The notes beneath the pieces were generated by a model. It did not search any database and had not been told where the DNA came from. It worked only from the letters and a program-made list of their open reading frames with translations. The position numbers and the translations under genes are program-made. DNA of 55,633 nucleotides from an uncultured Candidatus Saccharibacteria bacterium (GTDB lineage Bacteria > Patescibacteriota > Minisyncoccia > Phycocordibacterales > UBA12445): positions 1 to 55,633 of the forward strand of contig CAZYTH010000008.1 in NCBI GenBank assembly GCA_964649715.1. The letters run 5' to 3'. This document shows positions 19,037 through 44,907 of the stretch, in pieces. Position 1 is the stretch's first letter. Each line of letters begins with the position of its first letter.

Positions 19037-19079
19037 AATATAAAAACCCGTTCTTATGAACGGGTTTTTATATTGTCTG
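19032..19079. terminator. Perfect 22-bp hairpin between convergent rnpB and nrdJ
   Basis: CAGACAATATAAAAACCCGTTC-TTAT-GAACGGGTTTTTATATTGTCTG. Confidence 0.8.
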
Positions 19080-31736: not shown

Positions 31737-32086
31737 CACTTAGTTTTTATTATCGGAAGACCCTAAGTCCTTAAACCGATACATAGCAAAAAACACCCTA
31801 TTTACAAAAGGTGTTTTTTCTATTTATTTAAAAAATATTCTTTTTACACTATCTAAAAAATGGTAAAATGTAAGTATGAATTAAAAATTCACCATAGACA
31901 TTAAAGCTTTTGGCCCACAGTGTTTATGTGGGTTTTTTAATTCATTTGGGCGTTTAAATTGAATAGGTATACCTTCCAAAAAACGCCGCGTCGATTATTC
32001 GATATAGCTGTGAGTAAACAAGTAAAGCCTCAAGAACCTTACTTTATCATAACTAGCGCCCTATTACCAACCAGCTTAATATTTCA

Positions 32087-32245
32087 ATGAGTAAAGGATC
32101 AAAAACATTCCCGCTTGGCAGAGACTCTAAAACCGGAGAATTCATACCAGTAAAAGAGGCCCTCCGTCGCCCAAACACCACAACGGTTGAGAGGATTCCA
32201 AAATCCGGAAATGGGGACACAGGCAGAGGTGGGAAAAGAAGATAG
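32087..32245 (+). CDS. Small basic protein (52 aa) with a GRDSKTG motif, absent from the ORF track
   Basis: Hand translation: MSKGSKTFPLGRDSKTGEFIPVKEALRRPNTTTVERIPKSGNGDTGRGGKRR. Co-directional, 32 nt before the GIY-YIG gene. Confidence 0.7.
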   Translation: MSKGSKTFPLGRDSKTGEFIPVKEALRRPNTTTVERIPKSGNGDTGRGGKRR

Positions 32246-32277
32246 TAAAAATGGTCGCTCCTGCTCATTAGCTATAT

Positions 32278-32628
32278 ATGCAACCTTTATGGCAAAAGTG
32301 CCTAGGAAATATATGGGGTTCTTTAGTGAATGTTGATTTGAGTCACCCTCATTTTAATAATCTAGAAGGAGTCTATATTATTTGGCAAGGAAACGGCCCC
32401 GTAATTAGGATTGGGCAGGGCATCATTCGAGATCGCCTCGCGGCACACCGAAGAGATCCAGCAATCACCCGATATTCTAATCTCTATGTAACATGGGCGC
32501 CGGTTTCCGATTTTTATCGTGACGGAATAGAGAGATATCTTGCAAATATTCTGAGACCAGTCGTCGGTGATGCGTTTCCAAATGTGTCACCCATACCGGT
32601 ATCTCTTCCTTGGGCTTGGCAAGCATAA
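32278..32628 (+). CDS. Stand-alone GIY-YIG-like nuclease
   Basis: GVYIIW...IRIGQG..RDRL..H...IERYL matches the GIY-YIG core with its Arg and Glu. Confidence 0.7.
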   Translation: MQPLWQKCLGNIWGSLVNVDLSHPHFNNLEGVYIIWQGNGPVIRIGQGIIRDRLAAHRRDPAITRYSNLYVTWAPVSDFYRDGIERYLANILRPVVGDAFPNVSPIPVSLPWAWQA

Positions 32629-32646
32629 AATATCGTTAAAATTAAT

Positions 32647-32677
32647 AAAATCACCCGCTGGAAGGTCGGGTGATTTT
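32647..32677. terminator. Bidirectional terminator
   Basis: AAAATCACCCG-N9-CGGGTGATTTT between the GIY-YIG gene and the recombinase. Confidence 0.75.
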
Positions 32678-34013
32678 AGTTTTGTTCAATCTCCACAATT
32701 CTTCTTGTAATTTTTATTTTAGATTTAAAGCATCCCATTAACTCTCGCTTCTCCTCATTCGCACCTTCGAGTAGGACATATTTGGCATAAGTTTTGAGAT
32801 CTATGTCCTCATGTTTTTCCCCTGAACCAGAGATGCCGAGAACACCTTTTCTAAATCTGTTGAATCTTTTAAGCTCTTCCTCGAATTTATATTTTATTCC
32901 AGCCTCGTTTAGATCTATCTTATCCATGAGTTTTACGAGTTGTTCTATTAAATCTTCTTCTCTTAAATACATACTTTTACAGTGACGGTCCTTGGATCTA
33001 CCACAACCGTAATAAATATATCTAGCGGTCGTTCCGTTTTTAAGTGGCTTATATTTTTCCTCAGCAGATATTCCTGAGCCGCAGAGACCGCAGATCATAA
33101 GCTTAGTAAAGGCGAATTCTTTATTCTGCCGGTGAATGTCGTCCCTTTTGAGTTGTTCTTGAACCTTATCGAATAATTCTTTTGTAACTATTGTTTCGTG
33201 TTTTCCTGTATACCAGTTTCCGGATTTTTTCGGATATTCAAAGACTCCATAATAAAAAGGGTTAGATAAGGTCCTATAAATATTTCCGAGCGCAATATTA
33301 TAATTTCCGACGGATTTAAAATTCAATTCAAATTTTAGCCAATGATATATCTTCCTACCGGACCATTTATCATTGGCTACTTTCTCATACATCTTCTTTA
33401 CTATCGGCGCGCGGTCGGGATCTATAATGACCTGACACTTCTTATCCATATGTTTCTGATTTAAGTATCCCAGGGGAGCTATCCCTGGCCACAAACCCAT
33501 TTCTACACGAGCTCGTAGTCCTCGTCTTACATTCACGCCTCTATTATCATTCTCAAGTTTCGCTTGAGAACCAAGAATCATTAGGAGAAATTTTTCGTTT
33601 GGATTATTCGTAAATCGTTGTCCGTAGGTTCTGATTTCTAGAAGCAACTTCTGATCCATCAGGTCCACAATTCTTCCGAGATCTCCTCCGTTCCTGGAGA
33701 TACGATCCGGCGCCCACGTTAGAAGTCCGTTGTATTTTCCGGTTTTAATATCCTCGACAATTTCATTAAAGACGGGTCTTTGTCCGGTCTCTTTAGCAGA
33801 ATGACTTTCTCTTTTTATCTCTACGACCTCCAAATTTTCCCGCTCTGCCACCTGAAGCATCTCCTTTATTTGAGAATCGATGCTCAAAATCTGCCTCTCC
33901 GAATCCTCGGTACTTTTGCGAGCATATAAGCAAAAGCGAATTTTAATTGGCTCTTTATTTTCCTTATTTTGGTGATTAAACCCCACCAGGGCGTTGATTG
34001 CGCTTGTTTCCAT
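32676..34013 (-). CDS. Large serine recombinase (resolvase + recombinase + zinc ribbon)
   Basis: CLYARKST (catalytic Ser), PDRISRN, APLGY, NPFYYG, CGLCG...YYGC. Confidence 0.93.
   Translation of the reverse strand: METSAINALVGFNHQNKENKEPIKIRFCLYARKSTEDSERQILSIDSQIKEMLQVAERENLEVVEIKRESHSAKETGQRPVFNEIVEDIKTGKYNGLLTWAPDRISRNGGDLGRIVDLMDQKLLLEIRTYGQRFTNNPNEKFLLMILGSQAKLENDNRGVNVRRGLRARVEMGLWPGIAPLGYLNQKHMDKKCQVIIDPDRAPIVKKMYEKVANDKWSGRKIYHWLKFELNFKSVGNYNIALGNIYRTLSNPFYYGVFEYPKKSGNWYTGKHETIVTKELFDKVQEQLKRDDIHRQNKEFAFTKLMICGLCGSGISAEEKYKPLKNGTTARYIYYGCGRSKDRHCKSMYLREEDLIEQLVKLMDKIDLNEAGIKYKFEEELKRFNRFRKGVLGISGSGEKHEDIDLKTYAKYVLLEGANEEKRELMGCFKSKIKITRRIVEIEQN
33987..34002 (+). repeat. 16-bp direct repeat, copy 1 (inside the recombinase 5' coding region)
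   Basis: CAGGGCGTTGATTGCG, identical to 39313-39328. Confidence 0.8.
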
Positions 34014-34144
34014 ACACACACAATGAATGACGCATACCGCCCAACAAGTCTAGCTTGGTTGACCATTTATTGACTGAATGTCGTGTTCAAATTTATATGT
34101 TTTGGTCGATTGTTAAAAAATAAATATAACTATATATTTTATTT

Positions 34145-34867
34145 ATGAAATTGTTATTTATAGATGAAATATCTGGCAATAAAGAGATAAATAAAGATCT
34201 TTTTGGTTTGAGCGTCATCCAAATAGATCTGACAAAATATTCAAAAATTTGCAAAGAATTTAACGACTGTCTGAAAAAATATAATTGGCCGCAAGACGAA
34301 GAATTAAAAGGTCGCTACTTATTCAGCAGAGACCCCGCTGGACAAAAGAAAACACCCGACGAAATGGTCGCAATGACCGACGAGATAGTGGGTTCACTAG
34401 TTAGCGATAAGAACGCCAGAGGTAACGTTTTATTTTATTATAACTATAATGGAAATAATTTTGATAATTATCTAAAACTACTCAATAAAGCGATAAACGA
34501 CCTGCAGAAATGTGGCAAATGTAATGGTGGTAAAAATTTAGCGATGGTCTTTTTAGATTATTCTGATTATTTATTCAAGAATATCGACAGACTTAATTCG
34601 GAAACATGCATCTCTCTTAAAAAGAGGAATTATGCCCTTCTTGAAAAGATGGTTACCCTAGTTAGCTCCTCAAATAATGCTGTGGGAATTGTCTATGCGG
34701 ATGTTTTAGCCTATATCTGCCGTTGGTTCATTGAAAATCCGAAAAACAACGATCTTACGTTATTTGATTTTGGAAACGACTACAATTTAAAGAGGAAAAT
34801 AACGACCATTTATGGGATTGTTAATAAAATCAAAAGTATAAAATTAGTTGAGCTTAAACAACCTTAA
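34145..34867 (+). CDS. DUF3800-like (RNase H-like fold) protein
   Basis: FIDE.SG, ELKG, FLD, SS...GIVYADVLAY acidic motif pattern. Confidence 0.65.
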   Translation: MKLLFIDEISGNKEINKDLFGLSVIQIDLTKYSKICKEFNDCLKKYNWPQDEELKGRYLFSRDPAGQKKTPDEMVAMTDEIVGSLVSDKNARGNVLFYYNYNGNNFDNYLKLLNKAINDLQKCGKCNGGKNLAMVFLDYSDYLFKNIDRLNSETCISLKKRNYALLEKMVTLVSSSNNAVGIVYADVLAYICRWFIENPKNNDLTLFDFGNDYNLKRKITTIYGIVNKIKSIKLVELKQP

Positions 34868-35233
34868 TGTGTTTAATCTTAAATCGTGTTCCCAAACTCT
34901 TATTATCTTCCACCCAATACTTTTATAATATTTATTAACCTCTTTATCTCTTCTCTTATTATTTTCTATTTTCTGAGACCAAAATTTATTTCTTGTTTTT
35001 GGAATAGTTTTGTGCTTCTTACATCCATGCCAAAAACAGCCATCTACGAAGACCGCTGTCTTTTCTTTTTTAAAAACAAAATCTGGGTGTCCGTATAAAG
35101 GTGAATTTCTACGCCAACCGGAAATTTTATTTAAACGGAGAAATTTTATAAATTGAAGTTCGGTTGTTTTGTTGCCTCCGGCTTTAATCGCCGCCATATT
35201 GCGACTTCTCGCTTCTTTTGAAATACGATCCAT
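34844..35233 (-). CDS. vsr: Very short patch repair endonuclease
   Basis: MDRIS...RSRNMAAIK, PDFVF, FVDGCFWHGC, W..KIENNKRRD, WEHD. Confidence 0.95.
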   Translation of the reverse strand: MDRISKEARSRNMAAIKAGGNKTTELQFIKFLRLNKISGWRRNSPLYGHPDFVFKKEKTAVFVDGCFWHGCKKHKTIPKTRNKFWSQKIENNKRRDKEVNKYYKSIGWKIIRVWEHDLRLNTLRLFKLN

Positions 35234-35234
35234 A

Positions 35235-36359
35235 TTATTTAAAACGGACTTGAAGATTTAGACGAAAGATATTTTTGTCGTCTTCTTTTGCCGCCGTTCC
35301 ATAACCATGCCTTGTTGTGCTCGGTGATTCAAATCTGGTATTTTCATATAAATAATCAAGGAATTTTTCCCTATTATACAAATGGAAACACACCAAGTCC
35401 CCATCTTCTTTGACAACAATATATCCACCCTGCGCTTCAGCTCTACCACTCCATGGTTTTGCCGGAGTCATTCCTAAGGCAACAGCCTCCAAAAATTGTT
35501 TTACTTTATACTGATAGTCGCCGAGATTTAAGTTATATCGGGTCAATGAAGGGTCTCCCGGCAGCGATTGAACCAACTCCTTAACAGATGTTCCCGTGCC
35601 CCTGAAAAAATTTGCCAGCATGGTGGCTATAATTTCCGGCATAACATAATCGATGCGAGCCAAATTACTTCTAAAGACATCGCTTTCCATCCTTGCAAAT
35701 TTCAAAGTTCCGCCTGTTCTATAAACCTCATTTGCACGATCTTTTACTACATTCTTGGTCGGAACAGCATTTAGCGTGTCGGAATCCAACTCGCCGGTAA
35801 TTTCATAGACAAAACTCGTATTACTTTTAGACGCGTTAAGAAGTGTCGGGGATGATCCGATTTCCGATTTAATACTAAAGCCCGACTCTACTTCTGTCGG
35901 GGAAAATCTATCGTGAACAATAAGACGAATATCCGATTTATCGGAGCTTGAGGCTTTTATCTGTTCGCAAAGTAGTAGATTCATAAATTTTTCAGCCTCG
36001 GGGATAGAAGTTTTTCCCTTCCCGATATTTTTTATAGATTCAAAGATTCTACGTACTCCATTTTTTAAATCAGAAATATCTATTGCGACAATTTTTTGGC
36101 CATCGATATTAAAAATCGAAACCTCATTGCCGTCTTTGGCGGTTGTAAGATCATAAACTTTTTTCTCTTTCTTTCCTGTAATTCTACTCTTTTCTTCGCG
36201 GATAATTTTTAAAACATCAAGATATTTATCCTCTATCTTATTGAGATTCTCATCGGCAGCGTATAAAACTTTATCGGAAAGTATTTTTAAGAATGCGTAT
36301 ATTTCACTCCATTCTCCTTTATTTCCTTTGCGAATTTTTTGGATAGAATTATTTATCAT
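35235..36359 (-). CDS. Type II restriction endonuclease, HpaII family
   Basis: GNKGEWSEIY, SDKSDI...GFSIKS, PTLLNAS, FESPSTTRH; sits between a C5 MTase and vsr. Confidence 0.8.
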   Translation of the reverse strand: MINNSIQKIRKGNKGEWSEIYAFLKILSDKVLYAADENLNKIEDKYLDVLKIIREEKSRITGKKEKKVYDLTTAKDGNEVSIFNIDGQKIVAIDISDLKNGVRRIFESIKNIGKGKTSIPEAEKFMNLLLCEQIKASSSDKSDIRLIVHDRFSPTEVESGFSIKSEIGSSPTLLNASKSNTSFVYEITGELDSDTLNAVPTKNVVKDRANEVYRTGGTLKFARMESDVFRSNLARIDYVMPEIIATMLANFFRGTGTSVKELVQSLPGDPSLTRYNLNLGDYQYKVKQFLEAVALGMTPAKPWSGRAEAQGGYIVVKEDGDLVCFHLYNREKFLDYLYENTRFESPSTTRHGYGTAAKEDDKNIFRLNLQVRFK

Positions 36360-37233
36360 ATTTTTCTAAGGTATCAATTATTTCTTTCGCGACAGCGGAA
36401 ATAGCGGGTACAATAACTGCATTACCGAGTTGCTTCATCGCCTGCGAGTTTGTGACGGGGAAATTGTAATTCTTAGGGAAACCCATCATCTTTTTTCCTT
36501 CTTCCGGAGTTAATCGTCTTTCTTTTCCGGATACCAGATAAGAATCCCAATTTCTTCGATCTCCTAAGCCAGATCCGCGACCACCTACACGTAATGTAAA
36601 ACCAACCTTACGAGAGCATTCTTCACCGAAAATATCGGACATCGTCCTTTTTAATGGAATCGGATCCGGAAATTTGAAAGGAATAAACTTGTCTCTAAAA
36701 CCAACCATATATAAACGAGGGCGATGTTGGGGTACATTAAAATCTGTTCCACGTACGATTTTATAATGAAAAGAGTATCCCAGGTCATCTTCGATAACAC
36801 TTTTAATTTTTGCGAAAGTTCTTCCGTCGTCATGTTTAAATAAGTGACTGACGTTTTCAATGAAATAAGCCTTAGGTTTTTTCTCTTTTATTATTCTGGC
36901 AATATCATAAAACAAAGTTCCTCGTGTCTCACTAAAACCTTTTTTATATCCGGCATTACTGAACGGCTGACATGGAAATCCTCCCGTGAGAATATCGAAG
37001 TCGGGAATATCTTTTTCGTTTACTTTTGTTATATCACCGGCAAATCTGTTTTCCGAGAAAATATGAGGCGAGATCTTTTTAAAATTTTTTTCGTACGTTG
37101 TTCTCGCATGCTTGTCCCATTCACTTACAAATTCGCATTGAGCTCCGTGTTTATGAAAAGCGAGATGGAAGCCCCCGATACCTGCGAATAAATCTATGAA
37201 AGTTATCGGTTTTTTGTTCTTTTTCGGATTCAT
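36349..37233 (-). CDS. DNA (cytosine-5) methyltransferase, cognate to the REase
   Basis: FIDLFAGIGG, GGFPCQPFS, ENV, PQHRPRLY, RRLTPEE, QLGNAV. Confidence 0.96.
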   Translation of the reverse strand: MNPKKNKKPITFIDLFAGIGGFHLAFHKHGAQCEFVSEWDKHARTTYEKNFKKISPHIFSENRFAGDITKVNEKDIPDFDILTGGFPCQPFSNAGYKKGFSETRGTLFYDIARIIKEKKPKAYFIENVSHLFKHDDGRTFAKIKSVIEDDLGYSFHYKIVRGTDFNVPQHRPRLYMVGFRDKFIPFKFPDPIPLKRTMSDIFGEECSRKVGFTLRVGGRGSGLGDRRNWDSYLVSGKERRLTPEEGKKMMGFPKNYNFPVTNSQAMKQLGNAVIVPAISAVAKEIIDTLEKYDK

Positions 37234-37243
37234 ATTATACAGA

Positions 37244-37903
37244 TTATATTAACCCTTTTTGACTGAAACTCCAATATTGCGATCCAGTTAAAATAATATG
37301 GTCTTTTAGTTCAATCCCAAGAATACTTCCGGCTTCTTTTATGCGATCGGTAATCATCCGATCTTCATCTGACGGGCTTACTTCTCCTGAAGGATGATTA
37401 TGTACAACAATAATAGAACAAGCACCATTTTGAAGCGCTGATTCAAAAATCTCACGTGGGTTAGCTATTCCCTCATTCAGGGTGCCGATAGAGATAATCT
37501 CCCGTTTTATTAGAAAATTTCTGGAATTTATAAGGAAAACAGCAAAGTGCTCTCTTTTTTGGTCGCGAATGTCTGAGCATAGTTCAAATATTTTTTCGGG
37601 AGTAAGTATTATTTCCGGCTGTTTATAATATAATCTCCTTCCAATTTCTATCGCGGAAATAATTTTAGCTGACTTAATCTTTCCCAAACCCTTAATCTTC
37701 GCCAGTTCGTTGACAGTGATTTTTTCCGGTCCTATTTCTTTTATCACTTCTATGATTTTTTTAGAAAGAGAAACAACATTTATGCCTTTAATTCCTGTCC
37801 CGATAATAGTCGCTAGTAATTCGTGATCCATTAGTTTTATGAGGCCGTATCTTTCCAGTTTTTCCCTCGGGCGTTCTAATTTTGGTAAATCTTTTATTTT
37901 CAT
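37244..37903 (-). CDS. radC: RadC-family JAB domain protein
   Basis: PREKL, KGLG..K HhH, PREIF, HNHPSG...S..D...DHII. Start set at MKIKD. Confidence 0.93.
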   Translation of the reverse strand: MKIKDLPKLERPREKLERYGLIKLMDHELLATIIGTGIKGINVVSLSKKIIEVIKEIGPEKITVNELAKIKGLGKIKSAKIISAIEIGRRLYYKQPEIILTPEKIFELCSDIRDQKREHFAVFLINSRNFLIKREIISIGTLNEGIANPREIFESALQNGACSIIVVHNHPSGEVSPSDEDRMITDRIKEAGSILGIELKDHIILTGSQYWSFSQKGLI

Positions 37904-38006
37904 ATTGTTAATTATTTGCTCTACCGAATATACCGCAAATATGAAGTTAAGGCCACTTCGCAACTTGTTCTTTTTAAGTTAATATGATTAATTCTAAATT
38001 AAAAAC

Positions 38007-38438
38007 ATGCACGATATTTTTATTAGAAATTTACCCGTTCAATTATCTTCTTCCATACAAGAACAATATAACGCACTCTTACCGGTGTTTAAATCCTATG
38101 CACAGGGAAAGAATGGTAAATATTACTCGGCTGTAAATAATAATTACGATATTGGTTGTTTCATGCTTGGATTAGCAATTATATATAAAACCATGATTAT
38201 ACCTCTCGCGGGTGCAAACTTGTGCCTTGATGATTTTAGGCGCAGAAAAAGTATCGATAAAATCAAAATAGGAAAATACTTTTTTTCGAGTAGAGATCAT
38301 CAAAAAATCGGAAATATGCTCAATGATTTAAATAAAATATTGATTAAATATAGTATTCCGGAAAATATTTTACTTTTCAGCGATGTAAAAGAATTTGCAA
38401 GAAATTTGAATGTCTATTTACTCAATAAAAATGGCTAA
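38007..38438 (+). CDS. Hypothetical protein
   Basis: 143-aa ORF whose stop overlaps the next start (ATGGCTAA). Confidence 0.65.
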   Translation: MHDIFIRNLPVQLSSSIQEQYNALLPVFKSYAQGKNGKYYSAVNNNYDIGCFMLGLAIIYKTMIIPLAGANLCLDDFRRRKSIDKIKIGKYFFSSRDHQKIGNMLNDLNKILIKYSIPENILLFSDVKEFARNLNVYLLNKNG

Positions 38439-39156
38439 TAATAAAACTCCATTTAAAGATGCTTCTAAATTTATCAAAGATATTGATTCTTTTTTAACTA
38501 AACATTCTGCATTATTCAGATTTCAAGGTAGTCGCATCAGTCATTTTTTTGAAATTACTTGCTACAATGATGTTGTAAAATTTTACGAAAATAACGGATT
38601 TGTCGCTTCACCCAAAAATCTCAACAAAGATGTCTTCTTGTATAAAATATCAGCAGCGGGAAATACTGATAATTTTTCATATTTTATCGTAAGTAAAAAA
38701 ATTAAAGGCACTTTGTATGAATTTGAGGTACACCACAACCTATCAATTGAATGCGCACACGAAAGAGATATTTTTTATACCGCCGACATTTCTGTGATAA
38801 AAAAAGATTCGGTAGAGAGAATTGATCCCCCCACCTATTCCCAAAAGAGAAGTTGTTGCAGGGCGAAAAACTTAGAAACTTTCTTTGAAGTCAAACATTT
38901 ATCTCCTTTCCCAGAATTATTATTTTCATTTACCGGATTTCCTGATAATTTTTTTATAAAAGAAGGAAGAAAGAGAATAATCACACACCTTGCTCCCTCG
39001 CTTTTAATATCAGGGAGGACTAATTACCACGCCAAAAAGATCAAAGAATATATAGAGAACCGTTTTGGAGTCAACATAATAGCCAATCTTTTTGGGACAC
39101 CGTCTGCCGTATATTCAAAAAAATATCCGAAGAAAAAGATAGGCACTCTGCCTTAG
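38431..39156 (+). CDS. Putative PD-(D/E)xK nuclease-fold protein
   Basis: FFEI...TADISVI...FFEVKH spacing resembles E...D...ExK; coupled to the upstream gene. Confidence 0.5.
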   Translation: MANNKTPFKDASKFIKDIDSFLTKHSALFRFQGSRISHFFEITCYNDVVKFYENNGFVASPKNLNKDVFLYKISAAGNTDNFSYFIVSKKIKGTLYEFEVHHNLSIECAHERDIFYTADISVIKKDSVERIDPPTYSQKRSCCRAKNLETFFEVKHLSPFPELLFSFTGFPDNFFIKEGRKRIITHLAPSLLISGRTNYHAKKIKEYIENRFGVNIIANLFGTPSAVYSKKYPKKKIGTLP

Positions 39157-39286
39157 CCTCATCGAGTGACGACATTATAAAGGACCTTCGCAAAACCTAT
39201 CTTTTAAGCTATTATGTATAAACAATTAAATATCGATATCGAGTGACCTAAACCTCTCAAAGAACTTGTGGGGCATGGTCCAAAAT

Positions 39287-39423
39287 CGCAATCAACATAA
39301 AGAACCCGACATCAGGGCGTTGATTGCGTCATATTGGGAAACCAATATGTGGGCCTAAAAACCCTCCTGGTGCCGGGCTTTTTCTGTCTCTGCACCGGGA
39401 ATTATAAATAAAACGCAATCAAC
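39287..39423. repeat. Repeat cluster: direct-repeat copy 2 (39313-39328) plus inverted CGCAATCAAC copies (39287-39296, 39414-39423)
   Basis: Exact matches read from the sequence; also a CATATTGG-GAAA-CCAATATG hairpin at 39330-39349. Confidence 0.75.
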
Positions 39424-39425
39424 AA

Positions 39426-40118
39426 ATGAATATTGAAAATAATTCCCTTGGGAGATTACTGAGAAGTATATTCTTAGCATTTATCTTTATTGTTCTGCTT
39501 ACAGCTATTTCAGATAGCCCTGCCTTCGGTTTTTGGATGGGAATAATTATGACGGTGATAGTAATATCGTTTTCTCGTAAACAAGATCAGCAGAGAAAAC
39601 AACAGAAAAAAGAAAAGTTGGCCAAAGAGGCGGAGGTCTATTTTTCCAAAATAAACAAAGATAAGAAGTTGATCGAGATTCCAAGTTCTATATTTCTCGA
39701 AAAAGGCGAAAAACTTCTTGTTGAAAACAAAACAGCCTTGATGGAAACCAAATCAGTCAGAAGTAGCTCGGGTGGTTTCGGTGGTGTCAGTATCGTAAAG
39801 GGGGTAAGGGTGGGTGGATACTCTGGTACTTCTAGCAGTTCTCTCGAATGGAAGGTGCTTGATTCCGGTTTTGTTTATCTAACGACGAAGAGAATTATTT
39901 TCAGGGGCAATAAAGAAAATAGAAATATAGAATTAAAAGATATTTTTGCTTTTGACTCTTATTCAGAAAGTATAGGTTTAAGCCTTAATTCCAAATCAAA
40001 GAACTTGAGATTTGTTGTGGATAATCCTCTAATCTGGTCAGGGCTTGTAAATATACTCAAATCCGTAGAAAATCCTGAAGATCTTAGTGAAATTAATTTA
40101 AATTTAAAGTTTGAATAA
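39426..40118 (+). CDS. Membrane protein with two N-terminal TM helices and a C-terminal PH-like domain
   Basis: Two hydrophobic helices, charged linker, G.VYLTTKRIIF.G motif. Confidence 0.7.
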   Translation: MNIENNSLGRLLRSIFLAFIFIVLLTAISDSPAFGFWMGIIMTVIVISFSRKQDQQRKQQKKEKLAKEAEVYFSKINKDKKLIEIPSSIFLEKGEKLLVENKTALMETKSVRSSSGGFGGVSIVKGVRVGGYSGTSSSSLEWKVLDSGFVYLTTKRIIFRGNKENRNIELKDIFAFDSYSESIGLSLNSKSKNLRFVVDNPLIWSGLVNILKSVENPEDLSEINLNLKFE

Positions 40119-40547
40119 CTATAAAGTCGAGATGCGATCGAATCCTAGCTCATCTTTCTTTCTTCCCGCTTCAATCTCTCTTTTATCTTCATCTGTAAGA
40201 GGTCTCGGCCCGATTATTTCTACCTTGATTCCCTCGACCTTCGAATCGTTTGCGAATACGTTTATCGGTCTTGGACGAATATATCTCTTGCAATTATTAT
40301 CGAGATAATATTTTATCGCCTTAAAATCTCCCTTTTTGATCATACCGAACATTTGACCTTCACACATATCTACAAACAAACTCCTGCCCATACCAAGAGC
40401 CTCTTCCATTTTCACCGCGAAGCTTTTACTCTTCCTCCATCGGTAAATGGTCGCTTTTGCAATCCCGCATCTTTTGGCGGCGACAGACACAAGAGGAATT
40501 TCCTCCAGAGTCTCCAAAAATTTTTGTTTATCATTATTGGACCTCAT
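40119..40547 (-). CDS. HTH protein resembling phage small terminase subunits (phBC6A51-like HTH)
   Basis: KFLETLEE..LVSVAAKRCGIAKATIYRWRK followed by helical E..L...I.KGD..AI.YYL; overlaps the ParB-methylase stop. Confidence 0.55.
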   Translation of the reverse strand: MRSNNDKQKFLETLEEIPLVSVAAKRCGIAKATIYRWRKSKSFAVKMEEALGMGRSLFVDMCEGQMFGMIKKGDFKAIKYYLDNNCKRYIRPRPINVFANDSKVEGIKVEIIGPRPLTDEDKREIEAGRKKDELGFDRISTL

Positions 40548-41871
40548 TTATTTTAACGGCTTTTTTACCTGTGAGGTTTTCCCACCTCTTTTTAATGACC
40601 TCGGCATAGATCGGTTGCTTTTCCATGATGAAGCACCTTCTTTTTAGTTTAACCGAGGCTATTAAAGTGGAACCGCTTCCTCCGAAAGGTTCGACCACAA
40701 TATCATCTCTCTTTGTCAGTACTTTTATATACGGAATCAAGATTTCTATCGGTTTTGTTCCGAATATAATTCCTTGTCCCGAGGACTTTTCATCGGATGC
40801 TACATGTTCAATAAAGTCGGTCGGACATATCGTTTTACCTTTCTCATATCCTTCCCAGTGTGGTTTACCGGAAGTCGCAAATAAAGCAGTCTCATATTCT
40901 TCTTGGAGCAACGGATCTTCTTCGGGCTCAGTGTTCAATTCTGTATTACCTGAAGTGCCAACCATAGCAAAATCAAATTTATTGAAGAATTTGTACTTTG
41001 CACTGAATCCCTGAACCCTATTCGGAATATGCCAAATTATCGTATTTCTGTACTTCCAGTGTTTTTCTAACTCATTCCAAATCGTTCTCAAATTTTTAGG
41101 ATTCTCATAAACAATTATTGAGAAGTCGGGTTTCTGAATCTCAACCATATTATTCATCCAAAGTTCCGTAAAATTATCGGGCAAAGTTTCTGTACCGATA
41201 TATACTCTGTCTCTTTTTAACCCGAACCCTTCAGTCACTTCACTGTCCTTTTTCTTTTTACCTTTTAAATAATCTAAAAGGTAAGGAGGGTCTGTCATGA
41301 CCATACTGGCTTTCTCATCTCCCATTAATGCCAGAACGTCAGACTCGACAGTACTATCTCCGATCATCAACCTCGAACCGTCTAAATCATATATCTCTCC
41401 GCTTTTAACATTTACCCCATTTATATTTAACTTATCCAACTCTTCCTCTATATTAAAAACCTCCGGAGTTTCTTCCTCTTTGAAGATGTCGTCTAGTTCT
41501 TCGCTCGAGAATCCGATGTCCCCAAGGAGATTCTCGTCAAATTCGGACAACAGTTCCAGATCAAATTCCCCCGTGTTTTTGTTTAGTCGGAGGTTCAACT
41601 CTTTTTCTTTTTCAATATCCGGAATATTTACATAGACCACCGGTACTGTGGTCATGCTTAATTCTTTCGCAATTTCGAGTCTGAAGTGGCCCCCAATCAC
41701 AATATTCTTTCTTTCAAGGGCACTGTTGCATATAACAGGATCGACCATACCGAATCTAACAACAGACTCTTTAAGTTGCTCGGCTTGCTCCTTAGAGTGC
41801 TTTCTCGGATTATATTCCGAGGGTAGAAGTTCATTTGTTGGAACTTCAACAACAGTGATGTTTTTATCCAT
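40534..41871 (-). CDS. ParB-N-terminal domain fused to an amino (N6A/N4C) DNA methyltransferase, beta class
   Basis: L.PSEYNPRKH...IGGHFRL (ParB-N), then TDPPY (motif IV) before EPFGGSGSTL (motif I). Confidence 0.88.
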   Translation of the reverse strand: MDKNITVVEVPTNELLPSEYNPRKHSKEQAEQLKESVVRFGMVDPVICNSALERKNIVIGGHFRLEIAKELSMTTVPVVYVNIPDIEKEKELNLRLNKNTGEFDLELLSEFDENLLGDIGFSSEELDDIFKEEETPEVFNIEEELDKLNINGVNVKSGEIYDLDGSRLMIGDSTVESDVLALMGDEKASMVMTDPPYLLDYLKGKKKKDSEVTEGFGLKRDRVYIGTETLPDNFTELWMNNMVEIQKPDFSIIVYENPKNLRTIWNELEKHWKYRNTIIWHIPNRVQGFSAKYKFFNKFDFAMVGTSGNTELNTEPEEDPLLQEEYETALFATSGKPHWEGYEKGKTICPTDFIEHVASDEKSSGQGIIFGTKPIEILIPYIKVLTKRDDIVVEPFGGSGSTLIASVKLKRRCFIMEKQPIYAEVIKKRWENLTGKKAVKINEVQ

Positions 41872-41960
41872 CTTATTTTATTGTTAATTAATAAAGCCAT
41901 GACACTTGGTCATGACTTAATTAGAACATTATTTATTTTGACTATTTGGAACTCAACAGG

Positions 41961-42776
41961 CTATTCAGTTCCAAATCTCTTAATTCTTAGTTTCTTCAAT
42001 CTTCTTGTACTGTCATAAACCTTTTGCCCGTTCTTTTTATTTCCGATTACGTTTTCTGAAATTTCTTTTGCCGTAATTTTATATTTCTTGTCTTCAGCTT
42101 CGTTGTATCTTTCTTTGCTTTTATTCCATTTATCTAACTCTATCGTCGTATCCAGATCTTTTATATCTCCATACGCACATACTCGTTTTGAAATTACTTT
42201 ATTTACAATTTTTTTAATATCGGTAAGTTCTTTGTCGGTCAGCGGAGCATACACTTTGATTTGAACAGAGGTCTGTTCATAAGACTTTTTCTTCGGATCG
42301 GGATAAAGATTAATTCCATAGTTATCTAGAGGGGCGTTTATTTGTCCAAAAAATATATACTGTCTCAATTGGTAATCAAAATGCGCGGGTAATCTAAATT
42401 TCTTGATTATATATTCGACGGCATGAGAAAGATAATTCCACGGAAGTTTGGTATTTCCCAAGAGCTCTGACTGTTTTTTGGCGGTAGATAAATTGATTTC
42501 TTCCTTATTTAATTTATCTCTTATGCCGTCAATCTGTTTTTTATATTCTTCTGATTCAATAATATCATCAGATCTATCGCTCATTTTCTCGGTCCAGGCT
42601 TCCGGGTCTTTCAGCCCGTCTTCCTTAATATCTAAAAACTTACGCGTATCTTTTATTATCTGCTGAAATAGCGAAGAAGTTGCGAGAAGCTTCATGGTGT
42701 CAATATTTCTCTTGCCCGTCGGATATCGTTTAAGAATATTCTGTTGTCGTTTGTTATTTTTACTATTATTTATCAT
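41961..42776 (-). CDS. Hypothetical protein with a basic, possibly HTH-like C-terminus
   Basis: 271-aa ORF; ITAKEISE...KVYDSTRRLKKLR; upstream of and co-directional with the ParB-methylase. Confidence 0.7.
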   Translation of the reverse strand: MINNSKNNKRQQNILKRYPTGKRNIDTMKLLATSSLFQQIIKDTRKFLDIKEDGLKDPEAWTEKMSDRSDDIIESEEYKKQIDGIRDKLNKEEINLSTAKKQSELLGNTKLPWNYLSHAVEYIIKKFRLPAHFDYQLRQYIFFGQINAPLDNYGINLYPDPKKKSYEQTSVQIKVYAPLTDKELTDIKKIVNKVISKRVCAYGDIKDLDTTIELDKWNKSKERYNEAEDKKYKITAKEISENVIGNKKNGQKVYDSTRRLKKLRIKRFGTE

Positions 42777-42812
42777 TTGAATATAATTTATTCCTGTTAT
42801 AGAGTTGAGTCA

Positions 42813-43382
42813 ATGAAAAATATTTGGACAAACACACTTAAAAATATAAAAGGGGCTTTTAGTAAAGAAAATAGAAAAGAGAACCTAAAGAGACTATTTA
42901 TTCTTTCAATATTATTCCTTTTAATATTTGCTGTCCCTTGGTTTTTTGGAATAAGTAACGAAACTGTTCTGGGGATCCTTTTCTTGATCCTTGTTTTTAT
43001 AACTTGGTTTATGGCCGGTTTTACCGTATTTAAATCACTCTTCACAATCGGCGCCGGTTTTTCTTTAATAATCTTTATCGCTAAATCTTATTGTGATCTG
43101 CCGGAAATTTTACACATATCAGATAATTCTCTAAAAGGTCTGTTGTCATTTGGATTTGTGTACATAGTCATTCTTTTTTCTAGGGCACTAACAGTTGAAA
43201 TATGGGGAGACAAAAAAGAAAATAAGGGGATGTTTAAAATGATTGAAGAGATATACAGAGGAGAAAAACCTTTTACTATTGTCAGTTTGTATTTATCTTT
43301 TATTGTTTTGTTTTTAATTCAACTTTTCCAGGTAATTGTTCCGATAATATTGGGACTCTGTGTATATAAACAGATGCTATGA
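42813..43382 (+). CDS. Multi-pass membrane protein of unknown function
   Basis: About five hydrophobic segments; ATGA overlap with the next gene; start set at MKNIW. Confidence 0.7.
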   Translation: MKNIWTNTLKNIKGAFSKENRKENLKRLFILSILFLLIFAVPWFFGISNETVLGILFLILVFITWFMAGFTVFKSLFTIGAGFSLIIFIAKSYCDLPEILHISDNSLKGLLSFGFVYIVILFSRALTVEIWGDKKENKGMFKMIEEIYRGEKPFTIVSLYLSFIVLFLIQLFQVIVPIILGLCVYKQML

Positions 43383-44236
43383 ACATAGATGAAAGATTAA
43401 AGGAGGGTTTTAAAGGATATGATAAAAAAAACGATAATTTTATCGAATGGCTAAACATCGTAAAAAAAATAGACAATGAATGTTTCTTGGCCATTAGAAA
43501 TATAATGCCAATATTTGAAGGTTTTACAAAAGGACACGCACACCCAAAAACACATTTTGCTTTTCTTAATTTTGTAATACATTTAAATACTATAAAAAAC
43601 GGAATAATTGATTTAGCGGAAACAGATAATGTTTATGGGGTACACATACTTTATAGGGTTTTTCTTGAACACTGGCTAAAAGGTATTTACATATGGACTA
43701 GATATTTAAAAGAGAAAACAGATGAAGTAGGCGTCGAATATATAGACACAGGAAGGATTGGCGATGATTTAAAATATGGCGATTCTATTAAAAAAATTTC
43801 CAAAATATTGGAAGCAGAGGAAAATAAAAAATCAGTCTGGGGTGTAATGTGTGAATTCAACCCCAAATTAAAAAAAATAAACCAGAGTGATCTAGAAAAC
43901 AAAATAAAGAAATTTGAATACAGGAGAATTGTTAAATATCTTGTAGATAACAATGCTCCGGGGAGCGATCTGGCTTTATCTATAATATCTGAATATTCAG
44001 AATTATCTGCTTATATACACGGTAGCCCAAGAGCGGCAGATTACTATGGTTTAAAGACCATTAATCATGATCAATTTGAGGAATACAAGGGAATGATTAG
44101 ATTTTCTTTTAATATGAGTCGGTCTTATGCTTTTTCTGTATTTTCCTTAATGCTTACTAATTTAGATGATAAAAATAAAAAGATTTTATTACCGTTATTA
44201 TTAAAGCTTAAAGAAAATAACGAGGAGATATATTAA
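43379..44236 (+). CDS. DUF5677-like helical protein
   Basis: RVFLE...Y and YSELSAYIHG motifs. Confidence 0.55.
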   Translation: MNIDERLKEGFKGYDKKNDNFIEWLNIVKKIDNECFLAIRNIMPIFEGFTKGHAHPKTHFAFLNFVIHLNTIKNGIIDLAETDNVYGVHILYRVFLEHWLKGIYIWTRYLKEKTDEVGVEYIDTGRIGDDLKYGDSIKKISKILEAEENKKSVWGVMCEFNPKLKKINQSDLENKIKKFEYRRIVKYLVDNNAPGSDLALSIISEYSELSAYIHGSPRAADYYGLKTINHDQFEEYKGMIRFSFNMSRSYAFSVFSLMLTNLDDKNKKILLPLLLKLKENNEEIY

Positions 44237-44432
44237 TCTTAATGAGACTGTCTCATTTGTCTCATTTTTGTCGGAATAACCTTATTCTTCAATAAATCGA
44301 TACCGACTCACAGACCTCAATTTTAGAGATGTTAAAATTTCCCAAAGGCCTTTGCGGTGACTGAAGGTGGTGGGTACTTAACTCTAGTGGCCCGCATCTT
44401 AAAAATCCGCCCAAAAGGCGTGATTTTTTTTA

Positions 44433-44764
44433 TGCGGAGGGTAGCAAGCCATCTATATGGCTTGCGTGAGAGATTCGAAGTCCGATTGAGCAGCTTTTGC
44501 GAGCATATGGCGAACAAAAACGCGAGGCGGTGCCCAGGCAAATTTTTCGGAAGAAAAATTTAGCCGCGGGCGAATCTCTCAAAAAATCCATCGGTGGGTA
44601 CCCGCCCGACTGAACGAATTCAGTCGTTCGGGCGGGCTGGTCCTGTAAGGACCGAATCTCTCCACAGCCCACCCAGACGAGAAGCGTCTGGGTGATTTAC
44701 CATTACGCAAAAGTGAGAGATTCGTGATTGAATCTCTCACTTTTGCTTCTGCGATAGATTCGAA
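44433..44764. repeat. Cluster of tRNA-Ser T-arm-derived inverted repeats and GC-rich hairpins
   Basis: Inverted copy of tRNA 31717-31738 split by a hairpin (44433-44479). CGAATCTCTC at 44571 and 44653. 17-bp perfect palindrome 44707-44746. Hairpins 44601-44636 and 44670-44694. Confidence 0.8.
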
Positions 44765-44907
44765 GCCCCGATGAAGGAATAACGTATTTGTTTAGGCAGG
44801 CAATCTCATCTTCTGTGTTCTTGCCATCACCACCACCCATATGCTAATCTCTGATCAGCAAAGACTTTGTTTCTTTGACATATTCCAAAATCAGTGAGGA
44901 GTTATCT

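What the first reader, a model, noticed from the sequence alone, without database searches (positions are those of the whole stretch)
44392..44764. Dense cluster of tRNA-Ser T-arm echoes 12.7 kb from the tRNA
Seen: the reverse complement of tRNA bases 31717-31738 is present at 44433-44479, split by a 9-bp-stem hairpin with a GT duplication. T-arm fragments recur at 44571, 44653, twice in a perfect 17-bp palindrome (44707-44746), and at 44756. Inference: before island insertion this cluster lay directly behind tRNA-Ser, which supports the boundary call. It could fold back on the pre-tRNA, act as decoy att sites, or record repeated integration/excision. An inverted rather than direct tRNA copy is not the textbook attR.
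Basis: partly seen in the sequence, partly recalled or inferred. Interest (0 to 1): 0.7.

Follow-up and report, generated by a model that had tools for sequence, protein, structure and literature searches.

The report
tRNA-end-mimicking trailer modules, displaced by island
The "tRNA echoes" are real: they are one nearly complete and two partial copies of a widespread, uncatalogued structured module that normally lies directly behind tRNA genes in candidate-phyla-radiation bacteria, resembles the E. coli RtT repeats, and was moved 12.7 kb from its tRNA-Ser here by an inserted gene island.

Summary
The 10-mer GAGAGATTCG occurs four times exactly and twice with one mismatch in 44468-44762. Its only other exact copy in the window is inside tRNA-Ser(GGA).

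It is not a pile of att scars. It is a mosaic of "tRNA-trailer units". Each unit is built in this order:
- a spacer hairpin;
- the reverse complement of the tRNA's acceptor 3' strand;
- a conserved hairpin, H1;
- the reverse complement of the T stem and T loop;
- a structured three-way-junction domain;
- a direct copy of the tRNA 3' end.

In related Patescibacteria (Parcubacteria group) the same unit lies 18-58 nt behind tRNA-Ser(GGA). It also follows other tRNA-Ser genes and tRNA-Val, Leu, Pro, Asp, Cys, Glu, Gly, Trp, Arg and Asn. Each time it is matched to that tRNA, and it is often in tandem arrays.

A covariance model built from relatives hits 44468-44582 (38 bits, E = 5.6e-9) and a second unit at 103-230.

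The sense strand folds better than the antisense strand, and a G-U pair is conserved. Both point to an RNA, or another single-stranded sense molecule.

The closest known thing is E. coli RtT (RF00391), which works on the same principle but does not match in sequence.

Expression and function remain untested.

The parts
31652..31737 (+). tRNA-Ser(GGA), the gene whose 3' end is echoed. Its 3' end reads GTTCGAATCTCTCACCCTCCG followed by CA, and no CCA is encoded.
   Evidence: ARAGORN, Rfam tRNA 54.3 bits, sequence.
31739..44391 (.). Inserted island of about 12.65 kb that separates the tRNA from its trailer unit. It carries a large serine recombinase (32676-34019, - strand), Vsr, HpaII restriction enzyme with a C5 methylase, RadC, a LOOT RNA, a ParB-methylase and a DUF5677 protein. 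It is flanked by CCGCA at 31734-31738 and 44392-44396.
   Evidence: Pfam scans. Homology to L187 starts exactly at CCGCA. Serine recombinases recur next to tRNA-Ser in relatives. Relatives have no such stretch between the tRNA and the unit.
44397..44432 (+). Spacer hairpin of the unit (AAAAATCCGCCC aaaa GGCGTGATTTTT). It looks like a bidirectional intrinsic terminator.
   Evidence: (I4). The same kind of spacer is seen in 64 of 105 distinct units. It is almost identical in L187.
44433..44442 (+). a' acceptor part: TGCGGAGGGT, the reverse complement of tRNA bases 31729-31738.
   Evidence: In 36 of 56 distinct tRNA/unit pairs this segment together with the T part is 12/12 identical to the complement of the resident tRNA's 3' strands.
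44443..44465 (+). Hairpin H1 (AGCAAGCC ATCTAT ATGGCTTGC), the conserved scaffold hairpin of the family, placed between the acceptor and T parts.
   Evidence: nhmmer with an H1 profile hits 44443-44467. The H1 helix is 99% paired across 47 units, with 5 of its 9 pairs changed on both sides.
44466..44479 (+). Linker plus a' T part: GT GAGAG ATTCGAA, the reverse complement of tRNA bases 31717-31730. It is the 5' strand of closing helix P0.
   Evidence: covariance model alignment.
44480..44570 (+). Structured domain of unit 1, a three-way junction homologous to the domains of L075, L040 and L058.
   Evidence: BLAST to L075, alignment A1, model R1 hit at 44468-44582 with 38.0 bits and E = 5.6e-9, against only 12 bits on the antisense strand.
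44571..44581 (+). Direct copy of the tRNA T loop and T stem 3' strand (CGAATCTCTCA). It is the 3' strand of closing helix P0 of unit 1. The acceptor part expected after it is missing.
   Evidence: (I2, I7).
44582..44662 (+). 3' half of a second unit of another domain type: AAAAAATCCATCGG..GGGTAC..CTGGTCCTGTAAGGAC CGAATCTCTC. It ends in the second direct T copy (44653-44662) and is interrupted by hairpin H3.
   Evidence: Comparison with L161, L116 and L081. A landfill contig carries these pieces in another order.
44601..44636 (+). Hairpin H3 (CCCGCCCGACTGAACGAATTCAGTCGTTCGGGCGGG), an inserted hairpin that also occurs in many unrelated contexts elsewhere.
   Evidence: Many contigs with unrelated flanks in landfill, peat, groundwater, marine sediment and wastewater RNA runs. 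It also lies in a high-GC viral contig at L002:12245-12278.
44670..44694 (+). Hairpin H4 (CACCCAGACG agaag CGTCTGGGTG), probably the spacer hairpin between units.
   Evidence: (I10) and the folds. That it is a spacer is my inference.
44707..44746 (+). Perfect palindrome H5: GCAAAAGTGAGAGATTC gtgatt GAATCTCTCACTTTTGC. It is an inverted T copy paired directly with a direct T copy, that is, a closing helix with no domain inside.
   Evidence: I1. Model R1 gives only weak hits, to P0 alone, on both strands (14.4 and 13 bits).
44751..44777 (+). Degenerate 5' part of a third unit: GCGATAGATTCGAA GCCCCGATGAAGG (compare L161, GAGGGATTCGAAGCCTCGATGAGCA). It is truncated.
   Evidence: Direct repeat family D2 and comparison with L161.
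103..230 (+). A second, independent unit of the same family near the left edge of the window. It is preceded by a spacer hairpin (58-84) and a degenerate tRNA-end-like stretch.
   Evidence: Model R1, 57.4 bits, E = 1.2e-14; sequence.

Best explanation
The cluster is one nearly complete and two partial copies of a conserved 'tRNA-trailer unit'.

What a unit is. It is a 70-230-nt module that normally begins 18-58 nt after a tRNA gene. Its closing helix reproduces that tRNA's own acceptor stem and T stem. The 5' strand is the complement of the tRNA's 3' strands, usually interrupted by hairpin H1 at the acceptor/T junction. The 3' strand is a direct copy of the tRNA from the T loop to the discriminator. 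Between the two strands lies a variable, structured three-way-junction domain.

How it most likely works (inferred). The unit is read in the tRNA's direction, as a 3' trailer or read-through transcript. It folds into a tRNA-minihelix-like RNA. It is cut out by the enzymes that mature tRNA ends, as RtT RNA is cut from the E. coli tyrT transcript.

How it spreads (inferred). The 17-20-nt tRNA-end repeats let units multiply into arrays. They also let units pass between genomes by recombination, with the tRNA gene itself serving as homology. Correction between the inverted copies would keep them matched to the resident tRNA.

What happened in this window. The unit lay directly behind tRNA-Ser(GGA). 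A 12.65-kb serine-recombinase island then inserted at the tRNA's last bases (CCGCA) and cut the unit off from its tRNA. The unit array here is a mosaic and is partly decayed.

Shown: family membership, structure, covariation with the tRNA, strand bias and ancestral adjacency. Inferred: transcription, processing and function.
For: Family membership and position.
- Relatives have tRNA-Ser(GGA) beside the M48 gene, followed directly by the same unit.
- A metagenome scan found more than 120 contigs holding 130 units. Most lie 18-58 nt behind a tRNA-Ser of any anticodon.
- The same scaffold follows tRNA-Val, Leu, Pro, Asp, Cys, Glu, Gly, Trp, Arg and Asn, with echoes matched to each tRNA.
- The covariance model hits the window at 44468-44582 (E = 5.6e-9) and 103-230 (E = 1.2e-14), and hits sequences in relatives that were not used to build it.

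Structure.
- 94% of cells are paired and 154 cells are changed on both sides, with 0 of 500 shuffles reaching that.
- The domain consensus has covarying helices P1 and P3.

A single-stranded sense molecule.
- The tRNA-sense strand is more stable than the antisense strand in 33 of 37 units, by 6.8 kcal/mol on average. There are more G-U pairs on the sense strand (87 against 54 in the folds).
- GNRA-type loops (GCGA, GTGA, GGAA) recur on the sense strand in the unit sequences I read.
- A G-U pair is kept in 19 of 21 sequences.
- The model scores 38 bits on the sense strand against 12 bits on the antisense strand.

Precedent.
- Each E. coli RtT repeat ends in the tRNA-Tyr 3' end and contains its complement. 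Rfam pairs the two.
- RtT is expressed and varies in copy number (PMC4147364, PMC2658671).

Arrays and copy-number differences between related contigs: L153 has 3 copies against 1 in L183; L182 has 3 against 2 in L161.

Hint of RNA: metatranscriptome assemblies hold contigs identical over 57 nt to the a'-H1 module of L121.
Against: - No RNA data exist for this organism. The metatranscriptome contigs could be DNA carry-over.
- In 64 of 105 distinct units the spacer between the tRNA and the unit looks like an intrinsic terminator. That would limit co-transcription.
- In the window, the direct copies have lost the acceptor part and the unit is 12.7 kb from any tRNA promoter, so this copy may be inert.
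- In 19 of 46 units the last direct copy carries CCA, while the tRNA in front usually does not. This shows that units entered tRNA genes as DNA and fits a mobile DNA element equally well.
- RF00391 does not match the units. The likeness to RtT is therefore one of design and is not shown to be homology.
- Strand bias and G-T pairs would also be expected for a folded single-stranded DNA intermediate.
Confidence: 0.55

Rival explanations
1. A non-autonomous mobile DNA module. On this reading the unit is the recombination end of small insertion elements, with or without cargo, that enter tRNA genes at the T loop and bring a replacement 3' end. The inverted and direct copies would fold in single-stranded DNA into a duplex that imitates the target. 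This is comparable to integron attC sites or the CTX phage attP hairpin. A recombinase supplied in trans would act on it.
For: - The terminal direct copy carries the original CCA in 19 of 46 units, while the tRNA and the internal copies lack it. That is an insertion signature.
- Arrays consist of identical [spacer + unit] copies.
- Cargo of 0.7-12.7 kb lies between the tRNA and the unit in L164, L149, L137, L109, L142 and the window. This is the topology of a gene cassette followed by its attC site.
- The same scaffold is found behind many different tRNAs, which implies spread.
- The modules are shuffled between units.
Against: - No recombinase is consistently linked to units. Most units have none nearby, and cargo carries a serine recombinase, a tyrosine integrase or neither.
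- Cargo junctions lie at the tRNA's extreme 3' end (CCGCA), not at the T loop where the repeat begins. Islands and units therefore seem to be separate events.
- No unit was found in viral contigs.
- The recurring sense-strand GNRA-type loops, the conserved G-U pair and the conserved junction nucleotides are more typical of RNA.
- Homologous recombination, using the tRNA and the 17-nt copy as homology, explains the CCA pattern without a dedicated enzyme.
Confidence: 0.25
2. Neutral by-product of palindrome-driven replication errors. Template switching at two natural hairpins, the terminator behind the tRNA and the T arm, would create and keep correcting inverted and direct copies of the tRNA end. 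Further hairpins would then accumulate in the loops. On this reading the structure has no function of its own.
For: - The tRNA 3' end, the spacer hairpin and the inverted copy together form one long near-perfect palindrome centred on the spacer hairpin.
- The inverted and direct copies form a second palindrome centred on the palindromic T-loop sequence ATTCGAAT.
- The echoes always match the adjacent tRNA, whatever its identity.
- Minimal units without H1 or a large domain exist (L004, L064).
- Hairpin H3 behaves as a dispersed insert.
Against: - Independent errors would not produce the same H1 and the same domain, with conserved junction nucleotides and a conserved G-U pair, behind many tRNAs in organisms whose G+C content ranges from below 0.40 to 0.68.
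- H1 always lies at the acceptor/T junction.
- Strand asymmetry is not expected for purely double-stranded palindromes.
Confidence: 0.1
3. One reading: remnants or decoys of attachment sites left by repeated integrase-mediated integration and excision at tRNA-Ser.
For: - tRNA-Ser genes are integration hot spots in these genomes. Classical displaced tRNA 3' fragments occur in L067, L021, L030 and L080.
- Recombinase genes lie next to tRNA-Ser in the window, L109, L032, L017, L046, L068 and L142.
Against: - The island here shares only CCGCA with its far end.
- The echoes form covarying helices of a conserved module that also exists where there is no island and no integrase.
- Inverted copies, H1 and the domain are not products of att recombination.
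- The covariance model recognises the region as a structured family member.
Confidence: 0.05

Closest known systems
RtT RNA / rtT repeats of the E. coli tyrT-tyrV operon (Rfam RF00391; gene rttR)
   Same: - It lies directly 3' of a tRNA gene.
- Each roughly 178-nt unit ends with a direct copy of the tRNA 3' end starting in the T loop (AATCCTTCCCCCACCACCA).
- Each unit contains the complement (GGGGAAGGAT), and the Rfam consensus pairs it with that copy as the closing helix.
- Units occur in tandem, 3 behind tyrV and 1 between tyrT and tyrV, and vary in number between strains (PMC2658671).
- It is annotated and detected as an expressed RNA (PMC4147364; 10.1101/2024.07.17.603846).
   Different: - RF00391 does not hit the window even at E <= 10, nor 12 unit-bearing loci at its gathering score.
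- The units here cover the whole acceptor strand plus the whole T loop, 17-22 nt against about 10 nt in RtT.
- They carry hairpin H1 at the acceptor/T junction and have different interior domains.
- They usually lack CCA and usually follow a terminator-like spacer.
- They accompany many tRNA species across many uncultured lineages. In the E. coli locus I examined, RtT accompanies only tRNA-Tyr.
attL/attR repeats of tRNA-integrating islands (direct repeat running from the T loop or anticodon loop to the tRNA 3' end). The defining features are taken from my own knowledge of tyrosine-integrase elements.
   Same: - A direct copy of the tRNA from the T loop to the discriminator lies downstream of an intact tRNA.
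- The displaced copy often keeps the original CCA.
- Islands do lie at these tRNAs.
   Different: - The segment between the repeats is usually only 100-200 nt, with no integrase.
- It contains an inverted copy, H1 and a conserved structured domain.
- The real island in the window is bounded by 5 nt only and carries a serine, not a tyrosine, recombinase.
Integron attC sites and cassette arrays. The comparison rests on my own knowledge and on PMC5737381, which notes that single-stranded DNA and RNA motifs cannot be told apart by sequence analysis.
   Same: - An imperfect hairpin whose two arms flank a variable terminal structure.
- Strand-biased folding.
- Tandem arrays at one primary site.
- Optional cargo placed in front of the hairpin.
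   Different: - No IntI-type integrase or attI was seen next to the units examined.
- The arms are copies of the adjacent tRNA rather than R/L boxes.
- The recurring GNRA-type loops and the conserved G-U pair point to RNA.
REP/BIME-type mosaic palindromic repeats (from my own knowledge)
   Same: - GC-rich hairpin modules sit between genes in a mosaic, shuffled order.
- Individual modules, such as H3, are dispersed in many contexts.
   Different: - Units are tied to tRNA 3' ends and carry tRNA-specific sequence.
- None of the modules is repeated elsewhere in this 55-kb window, apart from the second unit at 103-230.

Membership tests
RtT RNA (RF00391) | Matches the Rfam covariance model at its gathering score | tested here: not met
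   There is no RF00391 hit in the window at gathering score or at E <= 10 in 44100-45000, and none in 12 unit-bearing loci. As a control, the model finds 4 copies in E. coli L205 at 133-137 bits.
RtT RNA (RF00391) | Lies directly downstream of a tRNA gene and ends with a direct copy of that tRNA's 3' end | tested here: met
   This holds for the family. In the window the T part is kept (44571-44581, 44653-44662) but the acceptor part is lost, and the tRNA is now 12.7 kb away.
RtT RNA (RF00391) | An internal segment complementary to the tRNA-end copy forms the closing helix | tested here: met
   One search shows this for RtT. Searches show it for the units.
RtT RNA (RF00391) | Released as a stable RNA from the tRNA transcript | not testable with these tools
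   No RNA run holds the window's region. Metatranscriptome contigs matching a related unit give only a hint.
tRNA-trailer unit family defined here (model R1; a'-H1-T'-domain-a) | Significant match to the covariance model built from relatives, on the tRNA-sense strand | tested here: met
   44468-44582(+) scores 38.0 bits, E = 5.6e-9, against 12 bits on the antisense strand. 103-230(+) scores 57.4 bits. Family members not used to build the model score 23-53 bits.
tRNA-trailer unit family defined here (model R1; a'-H1-T'-domain-a) | Inverted acceptor and T segments match the resident tRNA, with H1 at their junction | tested here: met
   44433-44442 and 44466-44479 are a perfect complement of 31717-31738, and H1 lies at 44443-44465.
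tRNA-trailer unit family defined here (model R1; a'-H1-T'-domain-a) | Begins within about 60 nt of the tRNA 3' end | tested here: not met
   The unit is 12.7 kb away in the window. This is explained by the island insertion. Six further loci show the same separation by 0.7-5.9 kb.
attR of a tRNA-integrating island | A direct repeat of the tRNA 3' segment (about 15-50 nt) lies exactly at the far island boundary | tested here: not met
   Only CCGCA is shared at 31734-31738 and 44392-44396. The sequence to the left of it at the far end (GGGTACTTAACTCTAGTGGC) is island DNA, also seen at the cargo end in L139.
attR of a tRNA-integrating island | A tyrosine integrase gene lies beside the tRNA | tested here: not met
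   The recombinase is a large serine recombinase with Resolvase, Recombinase and Zn_ribbon_recom domains.
Integron attC / cassette array | An IntI integrase and attI next to the array; R''/L''-L'/R' boxes | not tested
   I ran no dedicated search for an integron integrase. In the sequences I read, the arms of the hairpin are tRNA-derived rather than R/L boxes. The window's neighbouring genes gave no tyrosine integrase hit in Pfam.
tmRNA / true tRNA gene on the minus strand | Recognised by ARAGORN or the Rfam tRNA/tmRNA models | tested here: not met
   Searches report nothing at 44392-44800.

The most novel reading that the evidence does not exclude
Candidate-phyla-radiation and other uncultured bacteria carry a large, uncatalogued class of structured RNAs that are rebuilt for each tRNA gene. 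A constant scaffold (H1 plus a three-way-junction domain with a conserved G-U pair) is clamped by a helix that copies the neighbouring tRNA's acceptor and T stems. If so, each tRNA has a private minihelix mimic, released by the tRNA-processing enzymes. Such a mimic could act as a decoy or regulator for enzymes, toxins or phage factors that recognise tRNA ends. RtT of E. coli would be one outlying member of a much wider phenomenon.
Probability: 0.3. Interest if true: 0.75.

Novelty: new variant of a known kind. Interest (0 to 1): 0.6.

Why it matters
RtT has stood for decades as an isolated oddity of enterobacterial tRNA-Tyr operons with no agreed function. The same design turns up here behind many different tRNAs in hundreds of uncultured genomes: a tRNA-end copy paired with its complement around a structured core. 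This suggests a general and recurrent biology of tRNA trailers.

It gives covariation-supported structures and a model (R1) with which to annotate them. It also explains GC-rich "islands" of structure in AT-rich CPR intergenic regions.

It has a practical use for genome annotation. The units mark the original 3' flank of a tRNA, so they fix the far boundary of islands inserted at tRNA genes, as they do in this window.

If the units are RNAs processed by RNase P and RNase Z, they are natural minihelix substrates and possible regulators. If they are DNA elements, they are a new kind of tRNA-targeting insertion module.

Tried and rejected
- Known RNA families. Rfam at gathering score and at E <= 10 gave nothing relevant at 44100-45000; the best match was a spurious SpF25 hit below threshold. 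It also gave nothing over units in 12 other loci.
- A tmRNA or an interrupted tRNA gene on the minus strand. Rejected.
- Repeats of the modules elsewhere in the window. BLAST found none. Only the covariance model later found the second unit at 103-230.
- Phage origin. Three viral-contig scans found no unit. The two pattern hits were ordinary tRNA-fragment att sites beside integrases, and one hit was hairpin H3 alone.
- Exact-protein look-ups for the neighbouring genes. These gave only a 1-kb contig.
- An island-free variant in the source populations. Laying contigs of four runs on 31400-44950 showed no 31739-to-44391 joint. Coverage was too low to exclude one.
- RNA evidence. No RNA run holds the window's region. 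Runs found for L153 covered only its tRNAs. Runs found for L121 gave a 57-nt identical match to the a'-H1 module. The same runs do not contain the window's organism.
- A primer-binding-site reading (complement of the mature tRNA 3' end including CCA). Rejected because the bases 5' of CGGAG do not complement CCA.
- A serine-recombinase attB formed by the two inverted copies. Rejected because the copies are 18-58 nt apart and the cargo junction is at CCGCA.
- Literature. Searches for CPR tRNA-like RNAs, Patescibacteria tRNA-Ser and miniature tRNA-integrating elements found no description of this family. The 2017 survey of 224 motifs does not mention it.
Full report
**1. The observation**

ARAGORN finds tRNA-Ser(GGA) at 31652-31737. 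Its 3' end reads GAGAG TTCGAAT CTCTC ACCCTCC G, followed by CA.

In the finding's region, 44433-44442 (TGCGGAGGGT) and 44466-44479 (GTGAGAGATTCGAA) together are the exact reverse complement of tRNA bases 31717-31738. They are separated by a hairpin with a 9-bp stem at 44443-44465.

The 10-mer GAGAGATTCG is exact at 44468(+), 44571(-), 44653(-) and 44715(+). It has one mismatch at 44729(-) and 44753(+). Its only other exact copy in the window is the tRNA itself.

The region has 42-45% G+C against 30-36% in its flanks. It folds far better than shuffled sequence, with z = -9.4 and -11.4 on the two strands. In those folds the "echoes" are not scattered. The inverted and direct copies pair with each other as the closing helices of multi-branched domains.

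**2. The organism and the ancestral arrangement**

The window comes from a wastewater organism.

The M48 peptidase gene 0.9 kb to the right of the cluster has its best relatives (56-65% identity) in Patescibacteria of the Parcubacteria group. In these relatives tRNA-Ser(GGA) lies right beside the M48 gene.

In about 15 of 50 such loci the tRNA is followed within 25-60 nt by the same arrangement as in the window:
- a spacer hairpin;
- the complement of the tRNA's acceptor 3' strand;
- a hairpin with the H1 consensus AGCRAGC...GCTYGC;
- the complement of the T stem and T loop;
- a structured domain;
- a direct copy of the tRNA from the T loop to the discriminator.

L081 and L075 are the clearest cases.

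The echo sequences change with each genome's tRNA. L075 has GGAGCCG, L012 and L013 have CCCTCCCTCTCCG, and L040 and L058 have CTCCTACCCTCTG and CTCGTACCCTCTG. The direct copy is usually identical at 17-18 of 18 positions.

No island lies between the tRNA and the unit in these loci.

**3. The island**

Between the tRNA and the cluster lie these genes:
- a large serine recombinase (32676-34019);
- Vsr;
- an HpaII restriction enzyme with a C5 methylase;
- RadC;
- a LOOT RNA;
- a ParB-methylase;
- a DUF5677 protein.

The closest relative of the window's unit, L187, matches the window from exactly CCGCATCTTAAAAATCC onward. Upstream of that point it differs completely. The insertion point is therefore at the tRNA's last bases, and CCGCA is present at both ends (31734-31738 and 44392-44396).

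Six other loci also have 0.7-5.9 kb of cargo between a tRNA-Ser and its unit. The cargo includes a serine recombinase, a tyrosine integrase, or only restriction-modification genes. Serine recombinases recur next to tRNA-Ser genes, and the one in L068 is 63% identical to the window's.

I read the islands and the units as separate events at the same hot spot.

I found no island-free variant in the source metagenomes, but coverage was too low to exclude one.

**4. The family**

Most units lie 18-58 nt behind a tRNA-Ser with anticodon GGA, TGA, GCT, CGA or ACT.

That pattern was biased towards serine acceptor stems. An unbiased look at all 248 tRNAs in the fetched DNA shows the same scaffold behind tRNA-Val, Leu, Pro, Asp, Cys, Glu, Gly, Trp, Arg and Asn. 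The flanking segments are re-matched to each tRNA.

Other features of the family:
- H1 is optional. A minimal unit is only 69 nt (L004).
- Tandem arrays of identical [spacer + unit] copies occur: three copies in L153 and L182, two in L161, L165 and L121. Copy number differs between related contigs.
- In 19 of 46 well-preserved units the last direct copy is followed by CCA. The tRNA in front of a unit usually lacks CCA (62 of 74). Units therefore entered CCA-encoding tRNA genes as DNA and brought a replacement 3' end.
- Unit-bearing contigs range from below 0.40 to 0.68 G+C.

**5. Structure and strand**

I cut the variable domain out of 47 non-redundant units and counted pairs. The acceptor-like helix, H1 and the T-like helix are 94.1% paired, and 154 cells are changed on both sides. 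None of 500 shuffles reaches this, and sliding the partner columns drops pairing to 34-51%.

One caveat applies to that count. I picked the 3' strand by its complementarity, so helices 1 and 3 are partly circular evidence. The inner pairs of H1 were not constrained in that way, and they show 24, 4 and 10 double changes.

For the commonest domain type, RNAalifold on 21 sequences gives a three-way junction:
- P0: GATTCG / CGAATC.
- P1: covarying.
- P3: GGTCG / TGACC plus a covarying extension, with a G-U pair kept in 19 of 21 sequences.

The tRNA-sense strand folds better than the antisense strand in 33 of 37 units, by 6.8 kcal/mol on average, and has more G-U pairs in the folds (87 against 54). 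GNRA-type loops such as GCGA, GTGA and GGAA recur on the sense strand in the unit sequences I read.

A covariance model built from these relatives (R1) gives these results:
- It hits the window at 44468-44582 on the + strand with 38.0 bits, E = 5.6e-9, against 12 bits on the antisense strand.
- It reveals a second unit at 103-230 with 57.4 bits.
- It recovers family members in 80 related loci that were not used to build it.

These features favour a molecule that acts single-stranded in the tRNA's sense, most simply an RNA.

**6. Parsing the window's cluster**

- Unit 1 (44433-44581) is nearly complete and homologous to the units of L075, L040 and L058. Its direct copy keeps only the T part (CGAATCTCTCA).
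- 44582-44662 follows at once. It is the 3' half of a unit of another domain type (compare L161, L116 and L081). It is interrupted by hairpin H3 (44601-44636) and ends in the second direct copy.
- H4 (44670-94) looks like a spacer hairpin.
- The perfect palindrome 44707-44746 is an inverted T copy paired directly with a direct T copy, with no domain inside.
- 44751-44777 is the degenerate start of a third unit.

A landfill contig carries two of these pieces in the opposite order. Pieces are therefore shuffled between units.

**7. Comparison with what is known**

No Rfam family covers the region or the units in 12 other loci.

The closest known thing is RtT of E. coli. I checked this on the K-12 sequence.
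- Behind tyrV, and between tyrT and tyrV, each roughly 178-nt repeat ends in AATCCTTCCCCCACCACCA, the tRNA-Tyr 3' end starting in the T loop.
- Each repeat contains GGGGAAGGAT, and Rfam's RF00391 consensus pairs this with the 3'-end copy as the closing helix.
- RtT is annotated as an expressed RNA next to tRNA-Tyr and varies in copy number (PMC4147364, PMC2658671, 10.1101/2024.07.17.603846).

From memory, not checked here: work from the 1980s-90s reported that rtT RNA is released by processing of the tyrT transcript.

The principle is the same. The sequence, the extent of mimicry, H1, the interior domains, the lack of CCA, the terminator-like spacer and the range of tRNAs all differ. I therefore file the units as working like RtT, not as members of RF00391.

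**8. Mechanism, and what is uncertain**

My best reading has two parts.
- The unit is an RtT-like trailer RNA. Its closing helix imitates the acceptor/T minihelix of its tRNA, so that tRNA-end enzymes can release it.
- Its tRNA-end repeats drive array expansion and recombinational spread.

Four things count against this:
- 64 of 105 distinct spacers look like intrinsic terminators.
- There is no RNA evidence for this organism.
- The only hint of RNA is that wastewater metatranscriptome assemblies hold 151-195-nt contigs identical over 57 nt to the inverted module of L121. This could be DNA carry-over.
- The CCA pattern shows entry as DNA.

A mobile DNA module that folds as single-stranded DNA, in the manner of attC or the CTX hairpin, therefore remains a serious rival. 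A purely neutral origin by template switching is less likely, given the shared scaffold and the conserved G-U pair. The att-scar reading is largely refuted.

The copy in this window, cut off from its tRNA and partly decayed, may itself be inert.

**9. Verdict**

The att-scar interpretation is not supported. The object is a new, widespread variant of the RtT kind of tRNA-trailer element.

Noticed in passing
window 103-230 (+), with hairpin 58-84: A second trailer unit of the same family (model R1, 57.4 bits, E = 1.2e-14) lies at the left edge of the window. It is preceded by a terminator-like hairpin and a degenerate tRNA-end-like stretch (GAGTTCCAATTCCATCCCC). Its tRNA is not in the window.
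   Followed up: partly
window 44601-44636; L002:12245-12278: The 36-nt hairpin CCCGCCCGACTGAACGAATTCAGTCGTTCGGGCGGG occurs with unrelated flanks in landfill, peat, groundwater, marine-sediment and wastewater-RNA assemblies. It also appears to be inserted in a coding region of a high-GC viral contig, next to another hairpin. It behaves like a small dispersed palindromic insert.
   Followed up: partly
window 39245-39365 (+): A LOOT RNA (RF03000, 75.9 bits) lies inside the island, between unannotated ORFs.
   Followed up: no
window 32676-37233: The island's left part carries a large serine recombinase, a Vsr mismatch endonuclease, an HpaII-type restriction enzyme and a C5 cytosine methylase. It is a mobile restriction-modification island. 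L068 has a recombinase 63% identical to this one about 4 kb from its tRNA-Ser(GGA).
   Followed up: partly
window 44369-44377 and 44593-44601; L139 cargo end: GGTGGGTAC occurs at the island's right end and again inside the second unit, at the exact point where hairpin H3 is inserted. The island end GGGTACTTAACTC is shared with the cargo end in L139. This may be a recombinase half-site. It is unexplained.
   Followed up: no
window 18675-19041 (+): A bacterial class A RNase P RNA is present (118 bits). The enzyme that would process tRNA-like ends is therefore encoded nearby.
   Followed up: no
L109:4557-6149, L032:12561-14123: In these loci the large serine recombinase reading frame runs into the tRNA-Ser gene on the opposite strand, and its last residues are encoded by the tRNA's T arm.
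   Followed up: no
spacers of many units (e.g. L081:11151-11183, L012, L153, L182): Recurrent spacer motifs contain GCGAAGC or GCGAAGTGAG and GAGCGAAGCGAnTATAAT. The first is the sequence of a very stable DNA mini-hairpin (from memory). The second contains a -10-like TATAAT 7-8 nt ahead of the unit's first G, so some units may have their own promoter.
   Followed up: no
L013 (16.9-kb contig): Four tRNA genes on one contig (Val, Leu, Pro, Ser) are each followed by an echo of their own 3' end. In some genomes a large share of tRNA genes may therefore be accompanied by a unit. In this window only tRNA-Ser is.
   Followed up: partly
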